DNA of 32,000 nt from IMG/VR virus record IMGVR_UViG_3300045988_146431, positions 12,528 to 44,527 of that record. One strand, given 5' to 3'. The position numbers and the translations under genes were made by a program. This document shows positions 24,131 through 31,977 of this stretch, piece by piece (within the stretch, counting starts at the first letter, position 1; every line of letters starts with the position of its first letter). The stretch is from a virus. The notes beneath the pieces were generated by a model. That model was given only the letters and a program-made list of their open reading frames with translations. It was not told the DNA's origin and ran no database searches.

Positions 24131-24895
24131 TTAGCTAAATAAGCCTTTCTCTTTTTCAAGATCACTGAATGGAACTGTCATTATTCCATATTGTTTAAAA
24201 CCTTGCACGATATCGCTTTTTATTGTTTGAGCATCGTTTAGAATTACAATGCATTTCGCATCGTTTCTAGTCTTTTCTATATCCAACCACGCAAATACTG
24301 TAGTAGTCAGACTATCTCTAGTAGGATTGTTGATTGCCTTGCATAAGCGCTCGTTGTGATTTTTATTTCTTTGAAAGCATAGATCAAATTTTTGAGTTAG
24401 TCCTGACCTTCCAACAAATGAAACGTTATCCGAAAAATAAATATCATTTTTAATAAAAAAGTTTGTTACATCTTCCAAGAAATATGATGTAGTACGAACT
24501 GTATTGGTTAAATACATATCGTCAATTTGAAGCATTGTCATTGCTAATTGATGCACTTTAGATGGTAAATCCTCTTCAGATGATAAAACAGTCATTTCAT
24601 TATCATCACTTAAGGAAACCCCTGACAACATACAAATTTGTTCAATGGTTTTTCTTCTGCTGGATTTCTTACCAATATTCATGCCTGTATCGATAAGATT
24701 ATTTATAATATATCCATCATCGGAAACCAAAAACATACCGTTTTCTTTTTTATCATCCACATAGCAAACTATTGAATCTCCTATGTGATCTTCAAAAGGA
24801 AGGACTATTTCATGTGCAGTTTCTATTTTTTTTACAGATAAATTGGATTTTAAAAAATTCAAATAATTCTTTGCAAAGTCTTTTAAATTTTCCAT
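24131..24895 (-). CDS. Hypothetical protein, DUF1828+DUF1829-like architecture (254 aa)
   Basis: GGAGG RBS 9 nt upstream. The N-terminal part (VLPFEDHIGDSIVCYVDDKKENGMFLVSDDGYIINNL) and the C-terminal part (VGRSGLTQKFDLCFQRNKNHNERLCKAIN...VFAWLDIEKTR...IVILND) resemble my memory of the DUF1828/DUF1829 pair. Function unknown. Confidence 0.7.
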   Translation of the reverse strand: MENLKDFAKNYLNFLKSNLSVKKIETAHEIVLPFEDHIGDSIVCYVDDKKENGMFLVSDDGYIINNLIDTGMNIGKKSSRRKTIEQICMLSGVSLSDDNEMTVLSSEEDLPSKVHQLAMTMLQIDDMYLTNTVRTTSYFLEDVTNFFIKNDIYFSDNVSFVGRSGLTQKFDLCFQRNKNHNERLCKAINNPTRDSLTTTVFAWLDIEKTRNDAKCIVILNDAQTIKSDIVQGFKQYGIMTVPFSDLEKEKGLFS

Positions 24896-24922
24896 AACAC
24901 CATTCCTCCCTACAAAAACATT

Positions 24923-25408
24923 TTAACAAAATCTAGGCATTTCCACCACGCTATTTTTGTTTAATTCAATTACTTTAAATTTTCTTAAAAATTCTACACA
25001 ATAGTTTACCAAGTTAGGATTATTGATATCAAACTTTGTTGCATATTTATCTTGGTATTGTTCGGTAAATATATGTAGATGAGTTCCATAAATAATTTCT
25101 CCATCCGGATTTTTATGAGCGTGGTTATCAGGAACTACATCCAATCGCATCAAAGGTAATTTTGCTTCTTTATCTAAGGCAAGATATGTTAGTTTATCAG
25201 ATTGTCTGTTACCTCTACGCAAAATAATTTTGAATTTATGTTTAAATTCTTCTATAAGATAAGCTTCATATTCATTTCTTTCAGCTGGATTTGGAATTTC
25301 AATTTGTTTTTCTTGTAATCTCTTAAGTCCATCTAATAATTTTCTGATTTCTTCTTCTTTCATTTCCTCGTGCACCTCTATATTAATTTTAATATCGACA
25401 TTATTCAT
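24923..25408 (-). CDS. Hypothetical protein with His-rich HxNPDG...HLH motif (161 aa)
   Basis: ATG lies 6 nt after the integrase stop with no obvious SD, suggesting translational coupling (alternative start at Met16). Charged helical N-terminus. C-terminal LMRLDVVPDNHAHKNPDGEIIYGTHLHIFTEQY. Confidence 0.65.
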   Translation of the reverse strand: MNNVDIKINIEVHEEMKEEEIRKLLDGLKRLQEKQIEIPNPAERNEYEAYLIEEFKHKFKIILRRGNRQSDKLTYLALDKEAKLPLMRLDVVPDNHAHKNPDGEIIYGTHLHIFTEQYQDKYATKFDINNPNLVNYCVEFLRKFKVIELNKNSVVEMPRFC

Positions 25409-25414
25409 GTCTAT

Positions 25415-26512
25415 TTATAACAACTTATTCATCATATCTACAATACTCTTGTCTTTTGTATCAAACCAGTGTGCATATGTACTATGCAATGTTTCAACTG
25501 TATCTCCTAAGCGTTTGGCTATGTCAAAATCTGAGAATCCAGCTCCTGCCATGTTATTAATTAGAAATGATGCGTGTGAATGTCTAAAATCATGAATTCT
25601 TATTTTAGGCAATCCATCATCTTTTTCTTTTGCCTTATTGTATGCATCATCAAATCTTCTTTGTACTGTCTGAGGTGATATTGGTTTATAATATCCAAAC
25701 ACAAATTTATCTTTTGTGAAATCATCCCATTTAGAACATTCTAAAAACCATTCTCGAAGCATTTTAGACAATGTATTAGGCATTGTGATAGTTCTATAGC
25801 TATTGTTTGTTTTTGGCGGTGTAAGCCATTTATTAGGGTCTTTCTCTTTGTATCTATATGTTTTGTTGATGTCTATAGTTTGCTTCCTAAAATCAATGTC
25901 CTTCCATTGTAGGGCCATTGCTTCGCCTTTTCGTAATCCCATATAGAATAAAACAGAATAAAAGCATTTCATCATTTGTTCATCTACTTCTTCAATAAAC
26001 AAATCAAAATCATATTGCTGCCATATTGTCATTTCTTCTTTTCTTTCATTCAATCTAAGATCACGTTTTACATATGTCATTGGATTGGTTGGAATGTATT
26101 CAGAAGTAACGCCAAATTTATATAGCTTATTTAAAAAGAAATATATTCTAGATACATATGCCTTTGAATATTTCTCATCAAATTTGTTGATCAAGTTTTG
26201 CATTTGCCTTTTATCTAAAAAATCAATATCTTTCATTTCCTTAGAAAGAACATTGTACAAATATTCATCAGATTTTAGTGTTGATTCTTTTACATACTTT
26301 TTATTATATTCTTTAAAAGCTTTATATAGTCTGTCAAAATTCATGTCGGATGGAAGCATAAAGAAATCTTTCCTGAATTCAACCTCAGCTTTTTGTGCTT
26401 CCCATTTAGAATCAAAACCACGCTTACGATATCTCTTTATACATTTACCATCTTTGTATATTTTCCCGGCAAACATATATTTTCCTGTCTTCTTATCTAA
26501 TTCAACTGCCAT
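25415..26512 (-). CDS. int: Tyrosine integrase (phage-type, 365 aa)
   Basis: N-terminal arm-binding-like domain (MAVELDKKTGKYMFAGKIYKDGKCIKRYRKRGF). Catalytic LRKGEAMAL, RIHDFRHSHASFLI and LGDTVETLHSTYAHW. GAGGG RBS. Confidence 0.9.
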   Translation of the reverse strand: MAVELDKKTGKYMFAGKIYKDGKCIKRYRKRGFDSKWEAQKAEVEFRKDFFMLPSDMNFDRLYKAFKEYNKKYVKESTLKSDEYLYNVLSKEMKDIDFLDKRQMQNLINKFDEKYSKAYVSRIYFFLNKLYKFGVTSEYIPTNPMTYVKRDLRLNERKEEMTIWQQYDFDLFIEEVDEQMMKCFYSVLFYMGLRKGEAMALQWKDIDFRKQTIDINKTYRYKEKDPNKWLTPPKTNNSYRTITMPNTLSKMLREWFLECSKWDDFTKDKFVFGYYKPISPQTVQRRFDDAYNKAKEKDDGLPKIRIHDFRHSHASFLINNMAGAGFSDFDIAKRLGDTVETLHSTYAHWFDTKDKSIVDMMNKLL

Positions 26513-26828: not shown

Positions 26829-27905
26829 TTATTCAATTTCTGTTAATGGTGTTGGGTCAACCCAAACGCCACCAATCTTGACAATATTCTTTTGAACATT
26901 CACTGCATCGACTCTGATTCTAGATACATAGACTACTGCATTTGTGGTATGCAACACATTGTCATTATATCCGTCTGAGTTTGGCACTTTGTCGACCAAT
27001 CGAATTGGAAACCAACCGCCTAATTGAGATAAGTAACAACATAAATCATCACCAATCTTTTTCAAGCCTTGATTACCAATTTTCATATGTACAGATGTAA
27101 CATAGCTACCTTCATGCAAAATTTGGTCGATAGCTTCTGCGCTAGACTGTGTGGCGCCAACTGGCACATGAGGGTCTGTATCAATACCAGCATCATTAGT
27201 CCATCCAATCGCTACTCCATTACGATCAACACGATATGGATATTTTGTTCCTTTAATTACTCTACCAATGACACCTGACCAATCACCTTTTTTAACTGTA
27301 GAAGTTCCGTAGCAATTCACACTCAATGTGTTTGTACAGATAGGTAAATTAACTGAATATTTTTCTCCACTTGGAGTTGTAGGTTTTGGTGTTTCAACCT
27401 TTCCATCTAATTTTGCATTTACTTCATTAGCCAATTGTGGCATACGTGCTTCCAACCATGCTCCAGGGCATGATGTAGCCGCAAACATTTTGTGCATAGT
27501 CAATGATCCGCTAGAATTTCCTGTATAGTTCAATCTAAATCCATATCGTTTACAAATATCTACACATAGATTCACCAAGCTATCCCAAGTAGCTTGCGTC
27601 ATTTCTCCAGTTGCGTTATTAATGTTTCCACATTCAATTGTAATTGATTGAGAATCATTCAACCAATTTGAACTTGTCCATGCAGCATTTTCTTCATCAA
27701 CACTGCATGCAATGTCTCCATTAATTCCAATACAATAATTGGAAGATGCTTGACGAGTATTTCGTGCAAAATAATCTGCACATTGTTTACCACTCCATGC
27801 CGCAGCCATGTAGTGTGGAGTGATTTTACAAACCTTATATCCAAAACGACCATCATAATGTTGTGATGTTCTGTTACAATATGTTGCTAATCCGGAATAC
27901 GACAT
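26829..27905 (-). CDS. Endolysin: N-acetylmuramoyl-L-alanine amidase (Amidase_2/PGRP-like) with C-terminal wall-binding repeats
   Basis: KITPHYMAA...SSNYCIGINGDIACSVDEENAAWTSSN...SITIECGN...MHKMFAATSCPG fits the amidase_2 pattern. The C-terminal half looks SH3-like and repeated. Directly downstream of the holin. Confidence 0.85.
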   Translation of the reverse strand: MSYSGLATYCNRTSQHYDGRFGYKVCKITPHYMAAAWSGKQCADYFARNTRQASSNYCIGINGDIACSVDEENAAWTSSNWLNDSQSITIECGNINNATGEMTQATWDSLVNLCVDICKRYGFRLNYTGNSSGSLTMHKMFAATSCPGAWLEARMPQLANEVNAKLDGKVETPKPTTPSGEKYSVNLPICTNTLSVNCYGTSTVKKGDWSGVIGRVIKGTKYPYRVDRNGVAIGWTNDAGIDTDPHVPVGATQSSAEAIDQILHEGSYVTSVHMKIGNQGLKKIGDDLCCYLSQLGGWFPIRLVDKVPNSDGYNDNVLHTTNAVVYVSRIRVDAVNVQKNIVKIGGVWVDPTPLTEIE

Positions 27906-28000
27906 TCTTCATCTACACCTTCTTCCTTGCCATTGCTTAATTCTTCTTTTGCTTCTTCTGATAGATTCTCATAATCTACTACTTTTTCTTCATCATTCAT
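27887..28000 (-). CDS. Possible 37-aa acidic peptide bridging holin and endolysin
   Basis: GGAGGA lies 4 nt before the ATG. Hand translation: MNDEEKVVDYENLSEEAKEELSNGKEEGVDEECRIPD. Overlaps the endolysin start by 19 nt. Could be a non-coding spacer. Confidence 0.3.
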   Translation of the reverse strand: MNDEEKVVDYENLSEEAKEELSNGKEEGVDEECRIPD

Positions 28001-28002
28001 TA

Positions 28003-28224
28003 TTATTCCTCCGGTACACTAATTTCAGGCAATCCGCCAATACTAGTCAGCAACGAGACGATGCCTGACAAAACCGCTGACGAAATTACAACTCGCCAAT
28101 CAACGGCTTCCAATAATGCAGATGCTCCAATAACACCAACAGCAGTTTGAGCAATTGTCTTTAATGCTCTGATACTTGCATAATAGCCATATTGAATCCA
28201 CCATTCTTTACTATATTTTTTCAT
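28003..28224 (-). CDS. Holin (73 aa)
   Basis: Two hydrophobic helices (IRALKTIAQTAVGVIGASALLEAV and VVISSAVLSGIVSLLTSIGGL) and an acidic tail PEISVPEE. Resembles the Phage_holin_1/phi LC3-type pattern. Immediately upstream of the lysin. Confidence 0.7.
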   Translation of the reverse strand: MKKYSKEWWIQYGYYASIRALKTIAQTAVGVIGASALLEAVDWRVVISSAVLSGIVSLLTSIGGLPEISVPEE

Positions 28225-28245
28225 TTACAAATACCTCCTATCCTA

Positions 28246-28282
28246 ATAATAGTATTTAAATCGTTTGTACACTGTACAAAAT
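28246..28282 (-). promoter_or_regulatory. Late promoter box 2 (same palindrome, N12, TATTAT) in front of the holin
   Basis: 28264-28282 is identical to 5556-5574. The minus-strand -10 TATTAT (28251-28246) follows after exactly 12 nt. The holin ATG is 22 nt downstream of the -10. Confidence 0.45.
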
Positions 28283-28303
28283 AAAAGACCGTATTTAACG
28301 GCC
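28281..28303 (-). terminator. Intrinsic terminator closing the five-gene cassette
   Basis: Minus strand: GGCCGT-taaat-ACGGTC (one G-U pair) followed by TTTTATTTT. Starts right after the stop at 28304. Confidence 0.5.
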
Positions 28304-28777
28304 TTATTGATACATATTAAACATGTCTCGAATATGTGTCTTAATCATTGTTTTTTCTTCATCTGAATCAACGCATCCATGAATCATAGTTACGATTTGT
28401 TGCATACATTTCATTGTCTTATCCAATTCACGATGAGACTTTTCTAAGTCCATATCACCTTTTGTACGCTCATATTCTTCTTTGAACGCTTTATATTTTT
28501 TCAAATGTTCTGCAAGCTTATAAACAATATCTTCTGTTTCTGGATCATGAATATTATATCCATCATTATCTTCTTTTAATCGAGCTACAGTTGAAACTCC
28601 ATCTTTTCCTATCTCAATTTGATATTTGTTTCTCATTGCTTCTATAGTTTCAATGTCTTTGATATTATCTAAAGCTTGAGATAATGCATGGAAATAAGAT
28701 TCTGCATATCCATATTTCTCTAACATGTTTACTGACTCATGCATTATCTTCTCATTAACTTCCATTGCTTTATGCAT
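28304..28777 (-). CDS. Cassette gene 5: acidic helical protein (157 aa)
   Basis: ATG 28777 lies 5 nt after AGGTGA (the track GTG 28786 abuts the upstream stop). No family recognised. Confidence 0.6.
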   Translation of the reverse strand: MHKAMEVNEKIMHESVNMLEKYGYAESYFHALSQALDNIKDIETIEAMRNKYQIEIGKDGVSTVARLKEDNDGYNIHDPETEDIVYKLAEHLKKYKAFKEEYERTKGDMDLEKSHRELDKTMKCMQQIVTMIHGCVDSDEEKTMIKTHIRDMFNMYQ

Positions 28778-28786
28778 ATATTTCAC

Positions 28787-29206
28787 CTACGCAATCTTTT
28801 TAATGATAATGTTTGCATTTTGAACAGATAGATCTAAACCACTGTCATTTGCTAATGCAATTGTATAAGATGCGCCACATGGAACTTGAATTAGAGTGTC
28901 TCCACTTACATTTCCATACGCACTTGCAGTTGCAACAGTATAAATAGATTGTGTTCCACCAATTGCTTCTCCGTTTAGTTCAAGCACTAAAGAAGCTTGT
29001 CCTGCCGCTGCACTCGTAATATCCGCAGTATAAGTTACTTCATAGATACCTGGCTTTGTTAGTGTAAACAATCCACTTCCTAGATCATGAGCAAGCCAAC
29101 CTTTACATGGACACTGGCAGGATTTACTTCTTACACGATCTGTAGGAAACAATACATTATTTGAATTATCGACTGTCTGAACAGCCGTAGCAATACTATT
29201 AATCAT
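28787..29206 (-). CDS. Cassette gene 4: BclA-C-terminal / C1q-TNF-like jelly-roll protein (139 aa)
   Basis: AGGAGGA RBS. ...CQCPCKGW...GIYEVTYTADITSAAAGQASLVLELNGEAIGGTQSIYTVATASAYGNVSGDTLIQVPCGASYTIALANDSG...NANIIIKKIA parallels the remembered BclA C-terminal domain pattern. No collagen GXX repeats. Confidence 0.55.
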   Translation of the reverse strand: MINSIATAVQTVDNSNNVLFPTDRVRSKSCQCPCKGWLAHDLGSGLFTLTKPGIYEVTYTADITSAAAGQASLVLELNGEAIGGTQSIYTVATASAYGNVSGDTLIQVPCGASYTIALANDSGLDLSVQNANIIIKKIA

Positions 29207-29292
29207 TTTTTTGTCCTCCTATTAAAATAGGGATAGCCTTTCGACTATCCCGTTAAATCCAAAGGCAATTGCCTAATCACATATGTGCTAGA

Positions 29293-29916
29293 TTATAAGT
29301 TGTTGTAGCCATTACATCCACATCCGTTGTTATAAGCGTAATATGGTGAACATGTAATGTAAGCTGGTTTTGGTGTTGGTTGCAAAGTATTAATGATGTT
29401 TGCTGATTGTGCCTGTTGACTTAATTGGAAATTAGCCGTCAATAAATCACGATCACGATCAGCTAAACGATCACGTAATTCTTGCATAGTGTTTGCATTG
29501 ATCAACGCACGTGTTGCTTCACCTTCTGAATGAATTGCTGTTGTAATGTCACAAGTATTTTTGAAACTTTGAGCATTTACATTGTCAATTGCTCGTTGAG
29601 TGTTGCAGCAGCATTCTTGTTGCTGAGCTTGCAAGTTTTGAAGTCCTAACTGATTAGTATAGCGACTTTCTAATACATCACGTTGAGTTTGACAACCTGT
29701 TTGAGATACATTTGTGTTTGTGTTAAAAATGTCTCGTTTAATGAATTCTTCATTTAATAAAGAATCATTTGTTAGGTTTCCGTTGCCATATCCTCCATAT
29801 CCAAATAACACGAAGATTAGCAAGATCCAAATCCACCAACCTCCGCCGTTTCCAAAGCCGTCATCTCTTTCAGCTAAGTTGTAAGTTGGTTGAATTCCCA
29901 TTCCATTTTCCATCAT
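29293..29916 (-). CDS. Cassette gene 3: membrane protein with Cys clusters and coiled coil (207 aa)
   Basis: AAAGGAG RBS. TM GGGWWIWILLIFVLFGYGGYG. Motifs QQQECCCNTQRAID, EGEATRALINANTMQELRDRLADRDRDLL and the tail CSPYYAYNNGCGCNGYNNL. Confidence 0.6.
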   Translation of the reverse strand: MMENGMGIQPTYNLAERDDGFGNGGGWWIWILLIFVLFGYGGYGNGNLTNDSLLNEEFIKRDIFNTNTNVSQTGCQTQRDVLESRYTNQLGLQNLQAQQQECCCNTQRAIDNVNAQSFKNTCDITTAIHSEGEATRALINANTMQELRDRLADRDRDLLTANFQLSQQAQSANIINTLQPTPKPAYITCSPYYAYNNGCGCNGYNNL

Positions 29917-29957
29917 ATATGTTCTCCTTTCTTTCTATAATAACGGTTTATCCGTTG

Positions 29958-30200
29958 TTACCTGATTCCAAATTGTTTTGCCATTTGTTGAAGTTGTTGC
30001 TTTTGTTGTGGATTTAAATTACCCATCATCTGATTTAAAATCATTTGTGGATTTTGACCACTGTTCATAAGCATTTGAAATTGTTGAAATGCTTGTGGAT
30101 TTTTCTGTGATAGCATATTCATTAACATTTGTTGGGGATTTCCCATATTCATCATATTCATTGGATTCATATTACCCATAATACTTTTTAAAGGATTCAT
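29958..30200 (-). CDS. Cassette gene 2: Met/Asn/Gln-rich NPQ-repeat protein (80 aa)
   Basis: AAAGGAG RBS and ATGA overlap with gene 1. My count is 16 Met, 13 Asn and 17 Gln out of 80 residues. Four NPQ units (GNPQQML, KNPQAFQ, QNPQMIL, LNPQQKQ). Confidence 0.6.
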   Translation of the reverse strand: MNPLKSIMGNMNPMNMMNMGNPQQMLMNMLSQKNPQAFQQFQMLMNSGQNPQMILNQMMGNLNPQQKQQLQQMAKQFGIR

Positions 30201-30637
30201 TTTGTTTGTGCTCCTTTCTTTGGTTGCTCATTAGCTTGTTTTGGTGGTTTGCTTAATGCACATATCAAATCATCTAATTTCTTTTCGATTCCATTTACAC
30301 GATTTTCGATACTGTTAGAAGTATCTTCCGTGATTTCTTCAAATTTAAATTTTTTAAATGTTCCATCTAAAGATTTCATATAAAAAATAGATTTATTGTT
30401 ATCAAATAAAATCGTTGGTAAATTTGCATTCGCAAAGTTTCTAGCTTCCTGCTCATCGTTCACCCATTTTCCATTAAAATCAAAATTACCTTGTTGTTGT
30501 GGTGTAATCTGATTATTAATATTGATAGGTGGAATATTTGCATACTGTTGTACTTGCTGAATTTGTTGATCTATCATTTGTCTTTGCTGCATCAAACTGT
30601 CAATTCGTGCTTGTGCTGGATTATAATTGTTATACAT
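30197..30637 (-). CDS. Cassette gene 1: Q/N-rich N-terminus plus small globular domain (146 aa)
   Basis: ATG 30637 lies 6 nt after GAGGTGG (the track GTG 30646 is inside the RBS). QQRQMIDQQIQQVQQYANIPPININNQITPQQQ, then FDFNGKWVNDEQEARNFANANLPTILFDNNKSIFYMKSLDGTFKKFKFEEI. Confidence 0.6.
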   Translation of the reverse strand: MYNNYNPAQARIDSLMQQRQMIDQQIQQVQQYANIPPININNQITPQQQGNFDFNGKWVNDEQEARNFANANLPTILFDNNKSIFYMKSLDGTFKKFKFEEITEDTSNSIENRVNGIEKKLDDLICALSKPPKQANEQPKKGAQTK

Positions 30638-30663
30638 TTCAACCACCTCTTTATTACGCTTTA

Positions 30664-30692
30664 ATTATATGGTTACGCAACAAATAATTTAA
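30664..30692 (-). promoter_or_regulatory. Promoter-like element of the five-gene cassette
   Basis: Consensus minus-strand TATAAT (30669-30664), with a weak TTAAAT-like -35 17 nt upstream. Lies between the upstream terminator and the cassette RBS. Confidence 0.35.
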
Positions 30693-30719
30693 TACTCGAA
30701 TAATACTCATAAAATACCC

Positions 30720-30752
30720 AAAATAAAATGAGCAACCATTATAGATTGCTCA
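30720..30752 (-). terminator. Intrinsic terminator after the sigma-r4-like gene
   Basis: TGAGCAA (30729-30735) pairs with TTGCTCA (30746-30752), followed on the minus strand by TTTTATTTT. Confidence 0.6.
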
Positions 30753-30972
30753 CATATTTATCGAACATTTTTCTTGCTTTGCATACTCTGTTCCTTATGG
30801 TTTGTACTTCCATATGTAATGCATCTGCAATTTCGGTACATGACATATCATATACATATCTCATAATCAAAATCTGTTCATATTTCTTTCTTAATCCAAC
30901 AGATTTGATAAGTATTAATGCATCATTAGGACGTATCTCTTTTAATCTGTTAGCTTTGTTAATATAAACCAC
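30739..30972 (-). CDS. Small sigma-70 region-4-like HTH protein (77 aa)
   Basis: RKKYEQILIMRYVYDMSCTEIADALHMEVQTIRNRVCKARKMF is a typical sigma region-4 / LuxR-like HTH. GTG start 8 nt after the upstream stop, so the start is uncertain. Confidence 0.55.
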   Translation of the reverse strand: MVYINKANRLKEIRPNDALILIKSVGLRKKYEQILIMRYVYDMSCTEIADALHMEVQTIRNRVCKARKMFDKYVSNL

Positions 30973-30980
30973 CGCCTTAA

Positions 30981-31214
30981 TTAAATTCGTTGGTTTGAAT
31001 TAGCTTCGCAAGAACAATTATTCACATGATCATCTTTCCAATAACCACAACAAATAATAGTAGAATAAAGAACAATAATCACTAAAACCAATACTGTAAT
31101 AATCGTTCTACTTGTTTTATAGTTTCTATCAATTAATTTTGAGCAAAAACCATAAATGTTATCTACTTTTTCTTCTACATTTTGAAGTTTCTTGTTTGCA
31201 TCTTTAATATCCAT
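30981..31214 (-). CDS. XhlA-like membrane protein (77 aa; assigned on topology only)
   Basis: N-terminal coiled coil (KKLQNVEEKVDNIY) then TM (IITVLVLVIIVLYSTIICCGYW), the same layout as PBSX XhlA. Position fits between XkdX-like and the lysis genes. Confidence 0.45.
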   Translation of the reverse strand: MDIKDANKKLQNVEEKVDNIYGFCSKLIDRNYKTSRTIITVLVLVIIVLYSTIICCGYWKDDHVNNCSCEANSNQRI

Positions 31215-31497
31215 TTTTATTACGATCCTCCAACGCTTCTACACGTTTAAACAAAGTAGTTATTTGTTCTTTTATTTGAGAAAGCTCCACTTCCATTGAA
31301 TTGCTTCCTTTTTTAATTTCTGAAATTGAATCTTTAATATCACTTAAATCTGATTTAATATGTTCTAATTCATTCTTCAAAAATGCCATGTTGGATATTT
31401 GCTCTCCATCCATCTTACGTGTGCCACGATTATACGTAATAAATGCAATTACAAGCATGCATGCAGAAATAATAACACTAAGATATTCTCCACTCAT
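31204..31497 (-). CDS. Membrane-anchored coiled-coil protein (97 aa)
   Basis: AGGTGA RBS. N-terminal TM (YLSVIISACMLVIAFITY) then heptad-like LKNELEHIKSDLSDIKDSISEIKK...IKEQITTLFKRVEALE. Confidence 0.55.
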   Translation of the reverse strand: MSGEYLSVIISACMLVIAFITYNRGTRKMDGEQISNMAFLKNELEHIKSDLSDIKDSISEIKKGSNSMEVELSQIKEQITTLFKRVEALEDRNKNGY

Positions 31498-31508
31498 AAA
31501 AACATCAC

Positions 31509-31631
31509 CTATTTATTAACGATAGAATTTTTTTGTTCTACACTAATCCATCCAATAGAAGCAAAAATTTCTAAATCATTATTTGTAAATAAACCTAATT
31601 CATAATACGATTTGATTAATTCATAACTCAT
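31509..31631 (-). CDS. XkdX-family small protein (40 aa)
   Basis: Below the track cutoff. Hand translation MSYELIKSYYELGLFTNNDLEIFASIGWISVEQKNSIVNK parallels the XkdX pattern (..ik.yY.lGl.t..dv..fv..g.It.e....I). Confidence 0.6.
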   Translation of the reverse strand: MSYELIKSYYELGLFTNNDLEIFASIGWISVEQKNSIVNK

Positions 31632-31632
31632 A

Positions 31633-31977
31633 CTACTTCACCCCATTCAATTGAGCTTTTAATTGTGCAATTTGTAACATTAATTGTGCATTAATCTTAT
31701 CTTGCTCAGTAGGCACTGATTTTGGTTCTTCAATTGTAGGTTTGTCTCCTTCTGCAACCTCAATCACTTTGCCTTCTACATATTTGTAGTTATATCTTCC
31801 ATGTTCGTCTACTAATTCTTTTTCTAGATATTGACCTTGAGCATGAGCGTATTTATCGCCTTTCCCTTGGTCAATTTCTGTCATAATTGACATTTCTTCT
31901 TGTGATAAGAAAATATCTGAATTAATAGATGTGATGTATCCATCTTGTAAGGATACGTATACTTTATGTTCGTTCAT
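31633..31977 (-). CDS. XkdW-like tail-end accessory protein (114 aa)
   Basis: AGGAGGAA RBS. Small acidic protein ending in a heptad-like QDKINAQLMLQIAQLKAQL, directly preceding the XkdX-like gene as in PBSX-type late regions. Confidence 0.5.
   Translation of the reverse strand: MNEHKVYVSLQDGYITSINSDIFLSQEEMSIMTEIDQGKGDKYAHAQGQYLEKELVDEHGRYNYKYVEGKVIEVAEGDKPTIEEPKSVPTEQDKINAQLMLQIAQLKAQLNGVK

What the first reader, a model, noticed from the sequence alone, without database searches (positions are those of the whole stretch)
28281..30752. Self-contained five-gene cassette beside the holin: Q/N-rich, Met-rich NPQ-repeat, Cys-cluster membrane, C1q/BclA-CTD-like and helical proteins
Architecture seen on the minus strand:
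- The sigma-r4-like gene ends in a hairpin plus TTTTATTTT (30720-30752).
- About 50 nt later there is a consensus TATAAT (30669-30664) and a GAGGTGG RBS before ATG 30637.
- Five tightly packed genes follow (ATGA overlap at 30197-30200; the 28786/28787 genes abut).
- The unit closes with another hairpin plus T-run (28281-28303), just before the holin promoter box.
This is classic moron architecture, wedged between tail-end genes and the lysis cassette.
The products are atypical for that position:
1. 146 aa with a Q/N/I-rich N-terminus and a small globular C-domain.
2. 80 aa in which 46 residues are Met, Asn or Gln, with four NPQ repeats. This is reminiscent of Met-rich client-binding segments (STI1/ubiquilin-type, SRP54 M-domain).
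3. 207 aa with a Gly/Trp-rich TM, a CCC triplet, a coiled coil and a CGCNGY-type tail.
4. 139 aa with a BclA-C-terminal/C1q-like jelly-roll pattern but no collagen repeats, preceded by CQCPCKGW.
5. A 157-aa acidic helical protein.
Inference: this is a lysogenic-conversion or virion-decoration module that builds a Cys-crosslinked, C1q-like surface assembly (exosporium/spore-coat-like, or receptor masking), with a dedicated Met-rich chaperone. I know of no described system with this gene set.
Basis: partly seen in the sequence, partly recalled or inferred. Interest (0 to 1): 0.72.

Follow-up and report, generated by a model that had tools for sequence, protein, structure and literature searches.

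The report
Conserved orphan gene module in gut phages
The five genes are real and belong to a six-to-eight-gene module with its own small regulator that recurs in thousands of phages of anaerobic gut bacteria; its function is unknown, and a spore-coat role is unlikely.

Summary
Five tightly packed minus-strand genes lie at 28304-30637, bounded by terminator-like hairpins, and the 139-aa product scores above Pfam's threshold for BclA_C.

The genes do travel together. In 93 loci the order is g1, g2, g3, then a beta-rich fourth gene, then helical partners.
- The sigma-region-4 gene at 30739-30972 belongs to the module. A homologue lies upstream of g1, at a median gap of 110 nt, in 61 loci. A hairpin plus T-run lies between them in 38 of 43 distinct gaps.
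- The BclA_C-like protein is not essential. 43 loci carry an unrelated Cys-rich protein in that slot.

The constant core is g1, g2 and g3. g3 is a single-pass membrane protein with an invariant CCC motif and a Cys-rich C-terminal tail. None of these three has a Pfam family.

Hosts include non-spore-formers. None of g1, g2, g4 or g5 has a hydrophobic N-terminal segment, and there are no collagen repeats. An exosporium-like surface coat is therefore unlikely.

My best guess, held at low confidence, is a self-regulated operon that builds a membrane-anchored, thiol- or metal-stabilised complex. I found no description of this gene set.

The parts
30739..30972 (-). 'sig': a 77-aa protein with only sigma-70 region 4 (a helix-turn-helix), GTG start. 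Conserved regulator gene at the head of the module.
   Evidence: Pfam Sigma70_r4_2 at E = 2.2e-10. A weak match to the Q antiterminator family scores 22.5 bits, below the cut-off of 26. Sigma70_r4 families are the most frequent among genes upstream of g1 in related loci. By HMM, a homologue lies upstream of g1, at a median gap of 110 nt, in 61 loci.
30728..30753 (-). Hairpin plus TTTTATTTT that overlaps the sig stop codon. It is terminator-like, or possibly a regulatory inverted repeat.
   Evidence: A hairpin plus T-run is present in 38 of 43 distinct sig-g1 gaps in other loci, against 37% of shuffled sequences.
30664..30669 (-). TATAAT hexamer about 27 nt before the g1 start. Candidate -10 element.
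   Evidence: Read. The promoter scan does not call it, because the -35 is poor. In many related loci a -10-like hexamer directly follows the T-run.
30197..30637 (-). g1, 146 aa: an N-terminal Gln/Asn-rich helix, a disordered linker, a small alpha/beta domain and a C-terminal helix.
   Evidence: AF2 mean pLDDT 73, with elements H7-32, E56-98 and H110-129. No significant PDB fold match. BFVD matches at E <= 1e-3 are metagenome-assembled phage proteins, mostly unnamed. The family is present in 80 of 93 loci.
29958..30200 (-). g2, 80 aa: Met/Asn/Gln-rich with NPQ repeats, ending QFGIR.
   Evidence: 46 of 80 residues are Met, Asn or Gln. The family is present in 69 of 93 loci, always directly after g1.
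29293..29916 (-). g3, 207 aa: the core protein. It has a Gly/aromatic-flanked hydrophobic segment near residue 28, an invariant CCC motif, a long helix, and a P-x-P-A-Y...C-S-P-Y...GCGC tail.
   Evidence: 5218 relatives, none with a Pfam domain among the 120 listed. Present in 93 of 93 loci, which were mostly retrieved with g3 as the query. Invariant columns C102-C104, C122, P182, P184 and C201. The AF2 model is poor (pLDDT 46) but predicts helices at 27-39 and 115-169.
29230..29251 (-). Internal hairpin plus T-run between g3 and g4. Possible attenuator.
28787..29206 (-). g4, 139 aa: a stand-alone BclA_C-type domain with no collagen repeats.
   Evidence: PF18573 at 41.8 bits, cut-off 38. Weak direct matches to BclA chains in the PDB, E about 0.1. 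An exhaustive HMMER search finds 339 cluster representatives, nearly all 130-150 aa. This slot is filled by an unrelated Cys-rich family in 43 loci.
28304..28777 (-). g5, 157 aa: an acidic helical protein, fast-evolving.
   Evidence: The word-seeded search found only 5 relatives. An HMM detects the family in 33 loci. Other loci carry DUF7841 or a ferritin-like protein at this end of the module.
28285..28305 (-). Terminator-like hairpin plus T-run that closes the unit.
28003..28224 (-). Holin (flank). Part of the same 3.5-kb block that is conserved in relatives.
   Evidence: Phage_r1t_holin at E = 1.8e-11. Window 27992-31498 is 96.4% identical to L009.
30981..31497 (-). Two small proteins, each with one hydrophobic segment and a coiled-coil-like stretch (97 aa and 77 aa). 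Flank, inside the same conserved block.
   Evidence: Sequences. Block identity.

Best explanation
This is one copy of a widespread, undescribed accessory operon of tailed phages that infect strictly anaerobic gut and rumen Bacillota.

Shown:
- The conserved layout is sig (a sigma-70 region-4-only protein), then a hairpin with a T-run, then g1, g2, g3, then a beta-rich Cys-bearing protein, then one or more helical proteins.
- The beta-rich protein is either BclA_C-like, as here, or from an unrelated Cys-rich family.
- The helical proteins are g5, DUF7841 or a ferritin-like protein. Some loci add a papain-like Cys-His-Asp protein.
- The unit sits at different places in different phage genomes.

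Inferred:
- The sig protein controls transcription across the roughly 100-nt gap, either by activating a promoter that overlaps the hairpin or by antitermination. That would time the operon independently of the flanking late genes.
- g3 inserts into the host cytoplasmic membrane through its single hydrophobic segment and oligomerises through its long helix.
- The invariant CCC motif and Cys-rich tail hold the complex together, by metal-thiolate sites in the reducing cytoplasm or by disulfides once cells lyse.
- g1, which is coiled-coil-like with a small oligomerisation-like domain, and the Met/Gln-rich g2 act as obligate assembly partners or chaperones for g3.
- g4 is an exchangeable, probably trimeric head piece that docks on g3.
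- Because no partner has an export signal, the complex is built inside the cell. It then acts at the membrane during the end-phase of infection or is released at lysis.
For: Family size and synteny:
- g3 has 5218 relatives.
- Gene order is conserved in 93 loci: g1 in 80, g2 in 69, g3 in 93, g4 in 43, the alternative fourth gene in 43.

Regulator:
- sig lies upstream of g1 in 61 loci at a median gap of 110 nt, and Sigma70_r4 is the top Pfam family among upstream neighbours.
- A hairpin plus T-run occurs in 38 of 43 distinct gaps, against 37% of shuffles.
- In the window, terminator-like sites lie at both ends of the unit.

Core protein:
- The Cys columns of g3 are invariant, and the tail motif is kept whichever fourth gene follows.
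- g3 has a single hydrophobic segment. The partner families are essentially free of one.

Phage context:
- No plasmid matches.
- Most contigs are of phage size.
- The module is present in Ceridwen, which has no annotated integrase.
- It sits inside head operons upstream of the scaffold gene in 7-10 loci.
- A group I intron-like element with an endonuclease ORF splits g3 at the codons of the CCC motif in L033. Introns of this kind usually sit in conserved, expressed phage genes.

In this lineage the module is part of a 3.5-kb block with the holin that is 96% identical between phages whose endolysin and tail-fibre regions differ.
Against: - There is no direct evidence for any protein-protein contact, for metal binding, or for the time of expression.
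- The g3 structure model is unreliable, at pLDDT 46.
- g3 topology is ambiguous: mean Lys+Arg is 1.37 on the N-terminal side and 1.36 in the 25 residues after the hydrophobic segment.
- The g3 tail does not visibly co-vary with the type of fourth gene, so docking of g4 on that tail is a guess.
- The hairpins may simply end an upstream transcript.
- TATAAT in the window lacks a -35.
- Fold searches of g1 gave no functional lead.
- The 80 genome loci were retrieved through g3, so g3's universal presence is partly by construction.
Confidence: 0.33

Rival explanations
1. The products are virion-associated accessory parts. They could be a decoration or side fibre with a trimeric BclA_C/TNF-like knob that binds gut glycans, or internal proteins that are ejected into the host. 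They would be packed or attached during head or tail assembly.
For: The module lies in late regions. In 7-10 loci it sits between the minor capsid gene and the scaffold and major capsid genes. It is present in a phage with no annotated integrase. Established knowledge: TNF/C1q-like knobs are common at fibre tips and can act as lectins. All source phages come from gut or rumen samples.
Against: Structural genes rarely carry their own regulator and terminators inside a late operon. g3 has a strongly hydrophobic segment. The module occurs with many different head and tail types. The knob slot is filled by two unrelated families. I could not obtain any virion proteome that covers these genes.
Confidence: 0.2
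2. It is a lysis or egress accessory. A membrane complex would tune holin timing or help breach the envelope at the end of infection.
For: In this window the unit sits inside the lysis block, between two small membrane/coiled-coil proteins and the holin. It is inherited with them as one 96%-identical block. Roughly 12-15 of the related loci have lysis genes within two genes of the module. g3 is a membrane protein.
Against: In many loci the module is far from lysis genes, in head operons or next to integrases. There is no match to any holin, antiholin, spanin, XhlA or BhlA family. A cassette of six to eight genes is large for lysis control.
Confidence: 0.15
3. It is a prophage-borne defence or superinfection-exclusion system. 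A cytoplasmic sensor (g1, g4 or g5) would be coupled to a membrane effector (g3).
For: It has moron-like insulation and its own helix-turn-helix regulator. Its position in the genome varies. In temperate members it lies near lysis genes or the integrase, a typical cargo zone. Established knowledge: membrane effectors are common in abortive-infection systems.
Against: No PADLOC match for any component. There is no nuclease, NTPase or other typical defence enzyme. The module is present in a phage with no annotated integrase. Endonuclease and intron insertions point to a widely shared, conserved phage gene.
Confidence: 0.1
4. It is a redox or metal-handling module for phages of strict anaerobes. 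The Cys-rich and Met-rich proteins and a ferritin-like partner would buffer iron, copper or oxidants during infection or after release.
For: Every cultured host and every isolate named among the loci is an anaerobic gut or rumen bacterium. CCC and the Cys-rich tail are invariant. g2 is Met-rich. 17 loci carry a ferritin-like gene that matches PDB ferritins at E = 6e-5 to 2e-3.
Against: The ferritin-like gene is optional and is absent from this window. The Met content of g2 homologues varies widely. g5 has no conserved metal-ligand pattern: only one nearly invariant column. This reading does not explain the beta-sandwich proteins or g1.
Confidence: 0.1
5. One reading: a lysogenic-conversion unit that builds an exported, disulfide-cross-linked, C1q-like surface layer resembling exosporium or spore coat, or that masks a receptor.
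For: g4 is a BclA_C-type domain. The Cys motifs are conserved. The compositions are low-complexity, as in spore-coat proteins.
Against: The closest hosts are, to my knowledge, non-spore-formers. There are no collagen repeats or BclA N-terminal region. No partner has a hydrophobic N-terminal segment. The module is present in a phage with no annotated integrase. There is no match to the families of the endospore appendages, DUF3992 and DUF4183.
Confidence: 0.07

Closest known systems
BclA C-terminal domain (Pfam PF18573; C1q/TNF-like jelly roll of the Bacillus exosporium nap)
   Same: g4 scores above the Pfam cut-off. It aligns over model positions 33-128, including the C-terminal strand.
   Different: g4 is a 139-aa stand-alone domain. 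It has no collagen-like GXY region and no N-terminal exosporium-targeting region. It is phage-encoded, and its hosts include bacteria that to my knowledge do not sporulate. Unrelated proteins replace it in half of the modules.
Endospore appendage systems of Bacillota (S-/L-ENA with DUF3992; F-ENA with DUF4183, F-Anchor and F-BclA; PMC12357932)
   Same: Both use small beta-sandwich subunits that lack signal peptides and have Cys-bearing or hook-like N-termini. Both have a separate anchor protein and a BclA_C-type tip. In both, assembly is inside a cell that later lyses.
   Different: There is no DUF3992 or DUF4183 match. The anchor here is a membrane protein rather than a collagen-like or exosporium protein. 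The genes are on phages, including phages of hosts that to my knowledge do not sporulate. No fibre has been observed.
Morons: autonomous transcription units inserted in phage late regions
   Same: The unit is flanked by terminator-like hairpins and placed between genes of unrelated function. Its position in the genome varies.
   Different: It has six to eight genes with a dedicated regulator. Its base composition matches its surroundings. It is also present in a phage with no annotated integrase. The promoter is not established.
Small sigma-region-4-type phage activators (RinA, ArpU, LtrC) and the lambda Q antiterminator
   Same: sig is a small helix-turn-helix protein of the sigma-70 region 4 type, placed directly upstream of the operon it presumably controls, with a terminator in between.
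   Different: It is only 77 aa. It heads this accessory module rather than sitting upstream of the small terminase gene. It scores below the cut-off for the Q family: 22.5 bits against 26. No binding site has been defined.
Accessory proteins of PBSX-type lysis cassettes (XkdW, XkdX, XepA, XhlA, XhlB, XlyA)
   Same: The position is the same here: after a 40-aa ORF that by eye resembles XkdX, and before the holin and amidase. Both contain non-enzymatic accessory proteins of unknown role.
   Different: No module protein matches XepA, XhlA or BhlA families. In other phages the module is not tied to lysis genes.

Membership tests
BclA_C domain family (PF18573) | Profile HMM score above the curated gathering threshold | tested here: met
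   41.8 bits against a cut-off of 38, E = 1.2e-10, residues 39-139 on model positions 33-128.
BclA_C domain family (PF18573) | Trimeric TNF/C1q-like jelly-roll fold | not tested
The only other evidence is weak sequence matches to BclA crystal chains, E about 0.1.
BclA-type exosporium glycoprotein | Collagen-like GXY repeat region and an N-terminal exosporium-targeting segment ahead of the C-terminal domain | tested here: not met
   g4 is 139 aa with no GXY repeats. Its relatives are nearly all 130-150 aa.
BclA-type exosporium glycoprotein | Encoded by a spore-forming host and deposited on spores | tested here: not met
   The genes are phage-borne. The closest g3 relatives are named Holdemanella biformis, and the module is also in a Butyrivibrio phage and in Dialister and Phascolarctobacterium records. 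That these hosts do not sporulate is my own knowledge, not a tool result.
Endospore appendage subunits (DUF3992 / DUF4183) | Match to the DUF3992 or DUF4183 profile, or to solved Ena chains | tested here: not met
   No Pfam hit for the alternative Cys-rich fourth-gene family. No Ena chain in a profile search of the PDB. g4 matches BclA_C instead.
Moron | Own terminator downstream | tested here: met
   Hairpin plus T-run at 28305-28285.
Moron | Own promoter | tested here: inconclusive
   TATAAT is present at 30669-30664, but the scan calls no promoter there. -10-like hexamers follow the T-run in many related loci.
Moron | Base composition different from the surrounding phage genes | tested here: not met
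   GC is 0.29-0.37 in the module and 0.28-0.39 in the flanks.
Moron | Expressed from the repressed prophage | not testable with these tools
   Needs RNA-seq of a lysogen.
Sigma-70 / ECF sigma factor | Region 4 helix-turn-helix | tested here: met
   PF08281 at E = 2.2e-10. Matches to the region-4 end of many NCBIfam sigma models.
Sigma-70 / ECF sigma factor | Region 2 (core binding and -10 recognition) | tested here: not met
   The protein is 77 aa and matches only the C-terminal parts of sigma models. All scores are far below the family cut-offs.
Phage Q antiterminator (PF06530) | Profile score above the gathering threshold | tested here: not met
   22.5 bits against a cut-off of 26. The gene-then-terminator layout is suggestive only.
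Known anti-phage defence systems (PADLOC-DB 2.0) | Any component matching a defence-system profile | tested here: not met
   No meaningful hits for the window's five proteins and sig, or for four partner proteins from related loci. The only hit is JetA at E = 0.009 on a low-complexity stretch.
Holin / XhlA / BhlA-type lysis membrane proteins | Profile match of g3 to a holin-type family | tested here: not met
   None in Pfam or PHROGs.

The most novel reading that the evidence does not exclude
The module builds a phage-encoded supramolecular structure. A membrane-nucleated anchor (g3) would carry polymerising or capping beta-sandwich subunits (g4 or the alternative Cys-rich family), locked by thiol chemistry. 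This would be analogous in principle to endospore appendages, but made in vegetative cells of non-sporulating anaerobes during phage growth and set free by lysis. It would be a new class of phage-directed extracellular or particle-associated structure, under its own sigma-region-4-type switch.
Probability: 0.15. Interest if true: 0.85.

Novelty: categorically new. Interest (0 to 1): 0.62.

Why it matters
Most gene families in gut phages have no known function. This is a large, sharply defined piece of that unknown:
- At least four co-inherited orphan families (g1, g2, g3 and g5, or the alternative fourth gene) plus a dedicated regulator.
- The g3 family alone has more than 5000 relatives at E <= 1e-3.
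- The context is always phage, in human, primate, ruminant and rodent gut samples.

If the module forms a membrane-anchored, thiol-stabilised assembly, it would reveal a step of the phage life cycle in anaerobes that the model phages of aerobes do not have.

The sig-hairpin-operon layout would also give a compact, portable regulatory switch to study.

The module can be tested, because cultured phages carry it: Butyrivibrio phage Ceridwen, several Clostridium perfringens phages of the CPD1 type, and Holdemanella prophages.

Tried and rejected
Searches that gave nothing useful:
- Megablast of the region against GenBank phages: no match.
- A protein search of plasmids with g3: no match.
- NCBIfam and PADLOC scans of the five proteins: nothing meaningful.
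- Pfam on 127 diverse members of g1, g2, g3, g5, the small optional protein and the alternative fourth gene: no recurrent family.
- Rfam on the region: nothing.

Structure:
- The g1 model (pLDDT 73) has no significant PDB neighbour. The best hits are weak matches to the collagen XVIII trimerisation domain. BFVD hits at E <= 1e-3 are metagenome-assembled phage proteins, mostly unnamed.
- The g3 model is unusable at pLDDT 46.

Homology tests:
- Profile-profile comparison finds no link between g4 and the alternative fourth gene, or among g5, DUF7841 and the ferritin-like family.
- PDB profile searches gave nothing for the alternative fourth gene, the papain-like protein or g5.
- The small optional protein is not related to the window's 97-aa or 77-aa membrane proteins.

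Ideas rejected or left open:
- I checked the F-ENA system as a possible match and rejected it. F-ENA is built from DUF4183, not BclA_C.
- The positive-inside rule does not settle g3 topology.
- The g3 tail does not co-vary with the type of fourth gene.

Practical failures:
- I looked for virion proteomics of C. perfringens phages that carry the module. The key paper (PMC4127328) is not held, and other searches were unproductive.
- The homologue search for g5 returned only 5 proteins, too few for an alignment.
- Two alignments were too diverse for the locus finder.

Full report
**What is in the window**

On the minus strand the ORF list and the sequence show, in order:
- a 114-aa ORF (31633-31977) and a 40-aa ORF (31509-31631), which by eye resemble the PBSX proteins XkdW and XkdX;
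- two small proteins, each with one hydrophobic segment and a coiled-coil-like stretch (97 aa at 31204-31497 and 77 aa at 30981-31214);
- a 77-aa sigma-70 region-4 protein, 'sig' (30739-30972);
- the five genes of the finding: g1 (30197-30637), g2 (29958-30200), g3 (29293-29916), g4 (28787-29206) and g5 (28304-28777);
- an r1t-type holin (28003-28224), an Amidase_2 endolysin (26829-27905) and a 365-aa ORF (25415-26512) that I take to be the integrase.

Further along the same strand are the small and large terminase subunits, the portal and the prohead protease. The window is therefore most of a temperate tailed-phage genome.

- The ATGA overlap, the abutting g4/g5 ORFs, TATAAT at 30669-30664 and the AGAGGTGG ribosome-binding site are all present.
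- g2 has 46 Met, Asn or Gln residues out of 80 and four NPQ repeats.
- g3 has the CCC triplet and the CGCNGY-type tail.

The consensus scan finds terminator-like hairpins on the minus strand at 30753-30728, 29251-29230 and 28305-28285. That is part of 6 sites in the region, against 1.3 +/- 1.2 in shuffles. The scan does not call a promoter at the TATAAT.

**What the proteins are**

- g4 is above Pfam's threshold for BclA_C (41.8 bits, cut-off 38). It matches PHROG 20016, of unknown function.
- sig is a region-4 helix-turn-helix (PF08281, E = 2.2e-10). It also has a sub-threshold match to the Q antiterminator family.
- g1, g2, g3 and g5 have no Pfam, NCBIfam or PADLOC family. g1 and g3 match only PHROGs of unknown function; g2 matches none, and g5 only marginally.
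- An AlphaFold2 model of g1 (pLDDT 73) shows a helix, a disordered linker, a small alpha/beta domain and a second helix. It has no significant PDB neighbour. Its BFVD neighbours at E <= 1e-3 are metagenome-assembled phage proteins, mostly unnamed.
- The g3 model is unreliable (pLDDT 46), but it places a hydrophobic helix at 27-39 and a long helix at 115-169.

**Do the genes travel together?**

They do, and this is the main result.

tblastn against GenBank phages showed g3 and g4 side by side in gut and rumen phages. Reading the neighbours by eye showed all five gene types in the same order in Dulem viruses, Clostridium perfringens phages (CPD1, PMQ04), Butyrivibrio phage Ceridwen and human-gut contigs.

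g3 has 5218 relatives at E <= 1e-3 in the 5.8-billion-protein collection. None of the 120 listed has a Pfam domain, and most sit on contigs of 35-55 kb. The nearest cluster carries the NCBI name Holdemanella biformis. It lies in a prophage next to host genes.

A scan of GTDB genomes gave 207 relatives, of which 80 loci were kept. I built HMMs from the first loci and searched all ORFs of 93 loci. The order is nearly invariant: g1 (80 loci), g2 (69), g3 (93), then either g4 (43) or a different Cys-rich family of 110-160 aa (43).

After the fourth gene come one or more of the following:
- g5, in 33 loci;
- DUF7841 (PF25223), in 34 loci;
- a ferritin-like protein, in 17 loci. It matches PDB ferritins at E = 6e-5 to 2e-3;
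- a 125-aa protein with an invariant Asp-Cys...His...Asp pattern typical of papain-like enzymes, in 19 loci;
- a small protein of about 70 aa, in about 20 loci.

The two families that fill the fourth slot are not detectably related. Members of both often begin Met-x-Cys and carry Cys near the C-terminus.

**The regulator belongs to the module**

Pfam counts over the genes upstream of g1 put Sigma70_r4 families first. By HMM, a sig homologue lies upstream of g1 in 61 loci, at a median gap of 110 nt. In a few of these loci the gene instead encodes an AgrB-like membrane domain fused to a helix-turn-helix.

In 38 of 43 distinct gaps there is a strong hairpin followed by a T-run, against 37% of shuffled sequences. 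The T-run is often followed directly by a -10-like hexamer.

The unit is sig, hairpin, then the operon.

**Where the module sits**

- After tail genes and before the holin: this window, L009-L014.
- After the lysis genes: CPD1, PMQ04, Ceridwen.
- Next to an integrase.
- Between the minor capsid gene and the scaffold and major capsid genes. A scaffold protein is a downstream neighbour in 7-10 loci.

No plasmid carries g3. Base composition matches the flanks.

In this lineage, window 27992-31498 is 96.4% identical to L009. That block runs from the holin through the 97-aa gene. The endolysin catalytic part and the region beyond 31498 do not align. The block is therefore exchanged as a mosaic unit.

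Homing-endonuclease ORFs sit between module genes in several phages. In L033, g3 is split at the codons of the CCC motif by a 1.1-kb insert. The insert holds an endonuclease ORF that looks GIY-YIG-like by eye, and a sub-threshold match to the group I intron family (31 bits, E = 1.5e-5).

**What this says about function**

The exosporium or spore-coat reading is unlikely, for these reasons:
- Hosts include Holdemanella, Butyrivibrio, Dialister and Phascolarctobacterium, which to my knowledge do not form spores.
- g4 has no collagen region, and its relatives are nearly all stand-alone domains of 130-150 aa.
- None of g1, g2, g4 or g5 has a hydrophobic N-terminal segment.
- Ceridwen carries the module but has no annotated integrase.
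- The endospore-appendage families, DUF3992 and DUF4183, are not matched. F-ENA is a DUF4183 system.

What remains is a self-regulated operon whose constant core is g1, g2 and the membrane protein g3 with its invariant Cys motifs. It also has an exchangeable beta-rich partner and exchangeable helical partners.

I infer a membrane-anchored complex stabilised by thiols or metal. It would be assembled inside the cell, and would act at the membrane late in infection or be released at lysis.

This is an inference from anatomy, not a demonstrated mechanism. g3 topology is unresolved, and no interaction has been tested.

Four rivals stay open and are listed with their tests:
- a virion accessory;
- a lysis accessory;
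- a defence or exclusion system;
- a redox or metal buffer.

**Novelty**

None of the library scans or paper searches turned up a description of this gene set or of the core families.

The separate parts have known relatives: a region-4 helix-turn-helix, a BclA_C domain and, in other loci, a ferritin. The system as a whole does not match any known kind, so I rate it as new. Its function is unknown, and the interest score is moderate rather than high for that reason.

Noticed in passing
L033:6510-8330 (also L038:631-2392): g3 is split at the codons of its CCC motif by an insert of about 1.1 kb. The insert holds a 272-aa endonuclease ORF that looks GIY-YIG-like by eye, and a sub-threshold match to the group I intron family (RF00028, 31 bits, E = 1.5e-5).
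   Followed up: partly
L002:5005-5655, L003:6377-7240, L005:4401-4952: Free-standing homing-endonuclease-like ORFs are inserted between module genes in C. perfringens phage CPD1, Butyrivibrio phage Ceridwen and Dulem virus 33.
   Followed up: no
L018:6580-7137, L030:1927-2553, L054:6434-7009 (also L072, L073, L080): In some loci the small sig gene is replaced by a protein with an AgrB-like membrane domain (PF04647, E about 1e-5) fused to a C-terminal helix-turn-helix. This looks like a membrane-tethered version of the module's regulator.
   Followed up: partly
window 27992-31498, compared with L009: This 3.5-kb block (97-aa gene, 77-aa gene, sig, g1-g5, holin) is 96.4% identical to a contig that carries the Holdemanella-type g3. 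The endolysin catalytic region (Amidase_2 here, CHAP there) and the region beyond 31498 do not align. These are clean mosaic joints.
   Followed up: partly
window 29230-29292: The 86-nt gap between g3 and g4 holds a strong hairpin with a T-run (29251-29230) and a palindrome, AGGCAATTGCCT. It may be an internal attenuator that sets the g3:g4 ratio.
   Followed up: no
L012:1073-1521: In one metagenome contig g1 is broken into two ORFs (86 and 60 aa). This is either a frameshifted copy or an assembly error.
   Followed up: no
protein P0140: A 221-aa ENA protein is 96% identical to g1 over 92% of g1's length and also carries a BclA_C domain. It may be a natural g1-g4 fusion or deletion variant, or a chimeric assembly.
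   Followed up: no
window 24131-25408 (minus strand): Directly after the putative integrase gene lie DUF6978 and DUF1828/DUF1829 genes. This is a typical prophage cargo position and may hold an unrelated accessory or defence gene pair.
   Followed up: no
window 30728-30967 (plus strand): A 79-aa ORF runs antisense across the whole sig gene. In relatives my longest-ORF filter picked the antisense ORF over sig. It is probably spurious, and it explains why sig is unannotated in some contigs such as L009.
   Followed up: partly
L004:4604-5197, L002:7322-7849 and 15 other loci: A distant ferritin-like protein of 175-230 aa is an optional module member. Its profile matches prokaryotic ferritins in the PDB at E = 6e-5 to 2e-3. 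I did not check whether the iron-binding residues are kept.
   Followed up: partly
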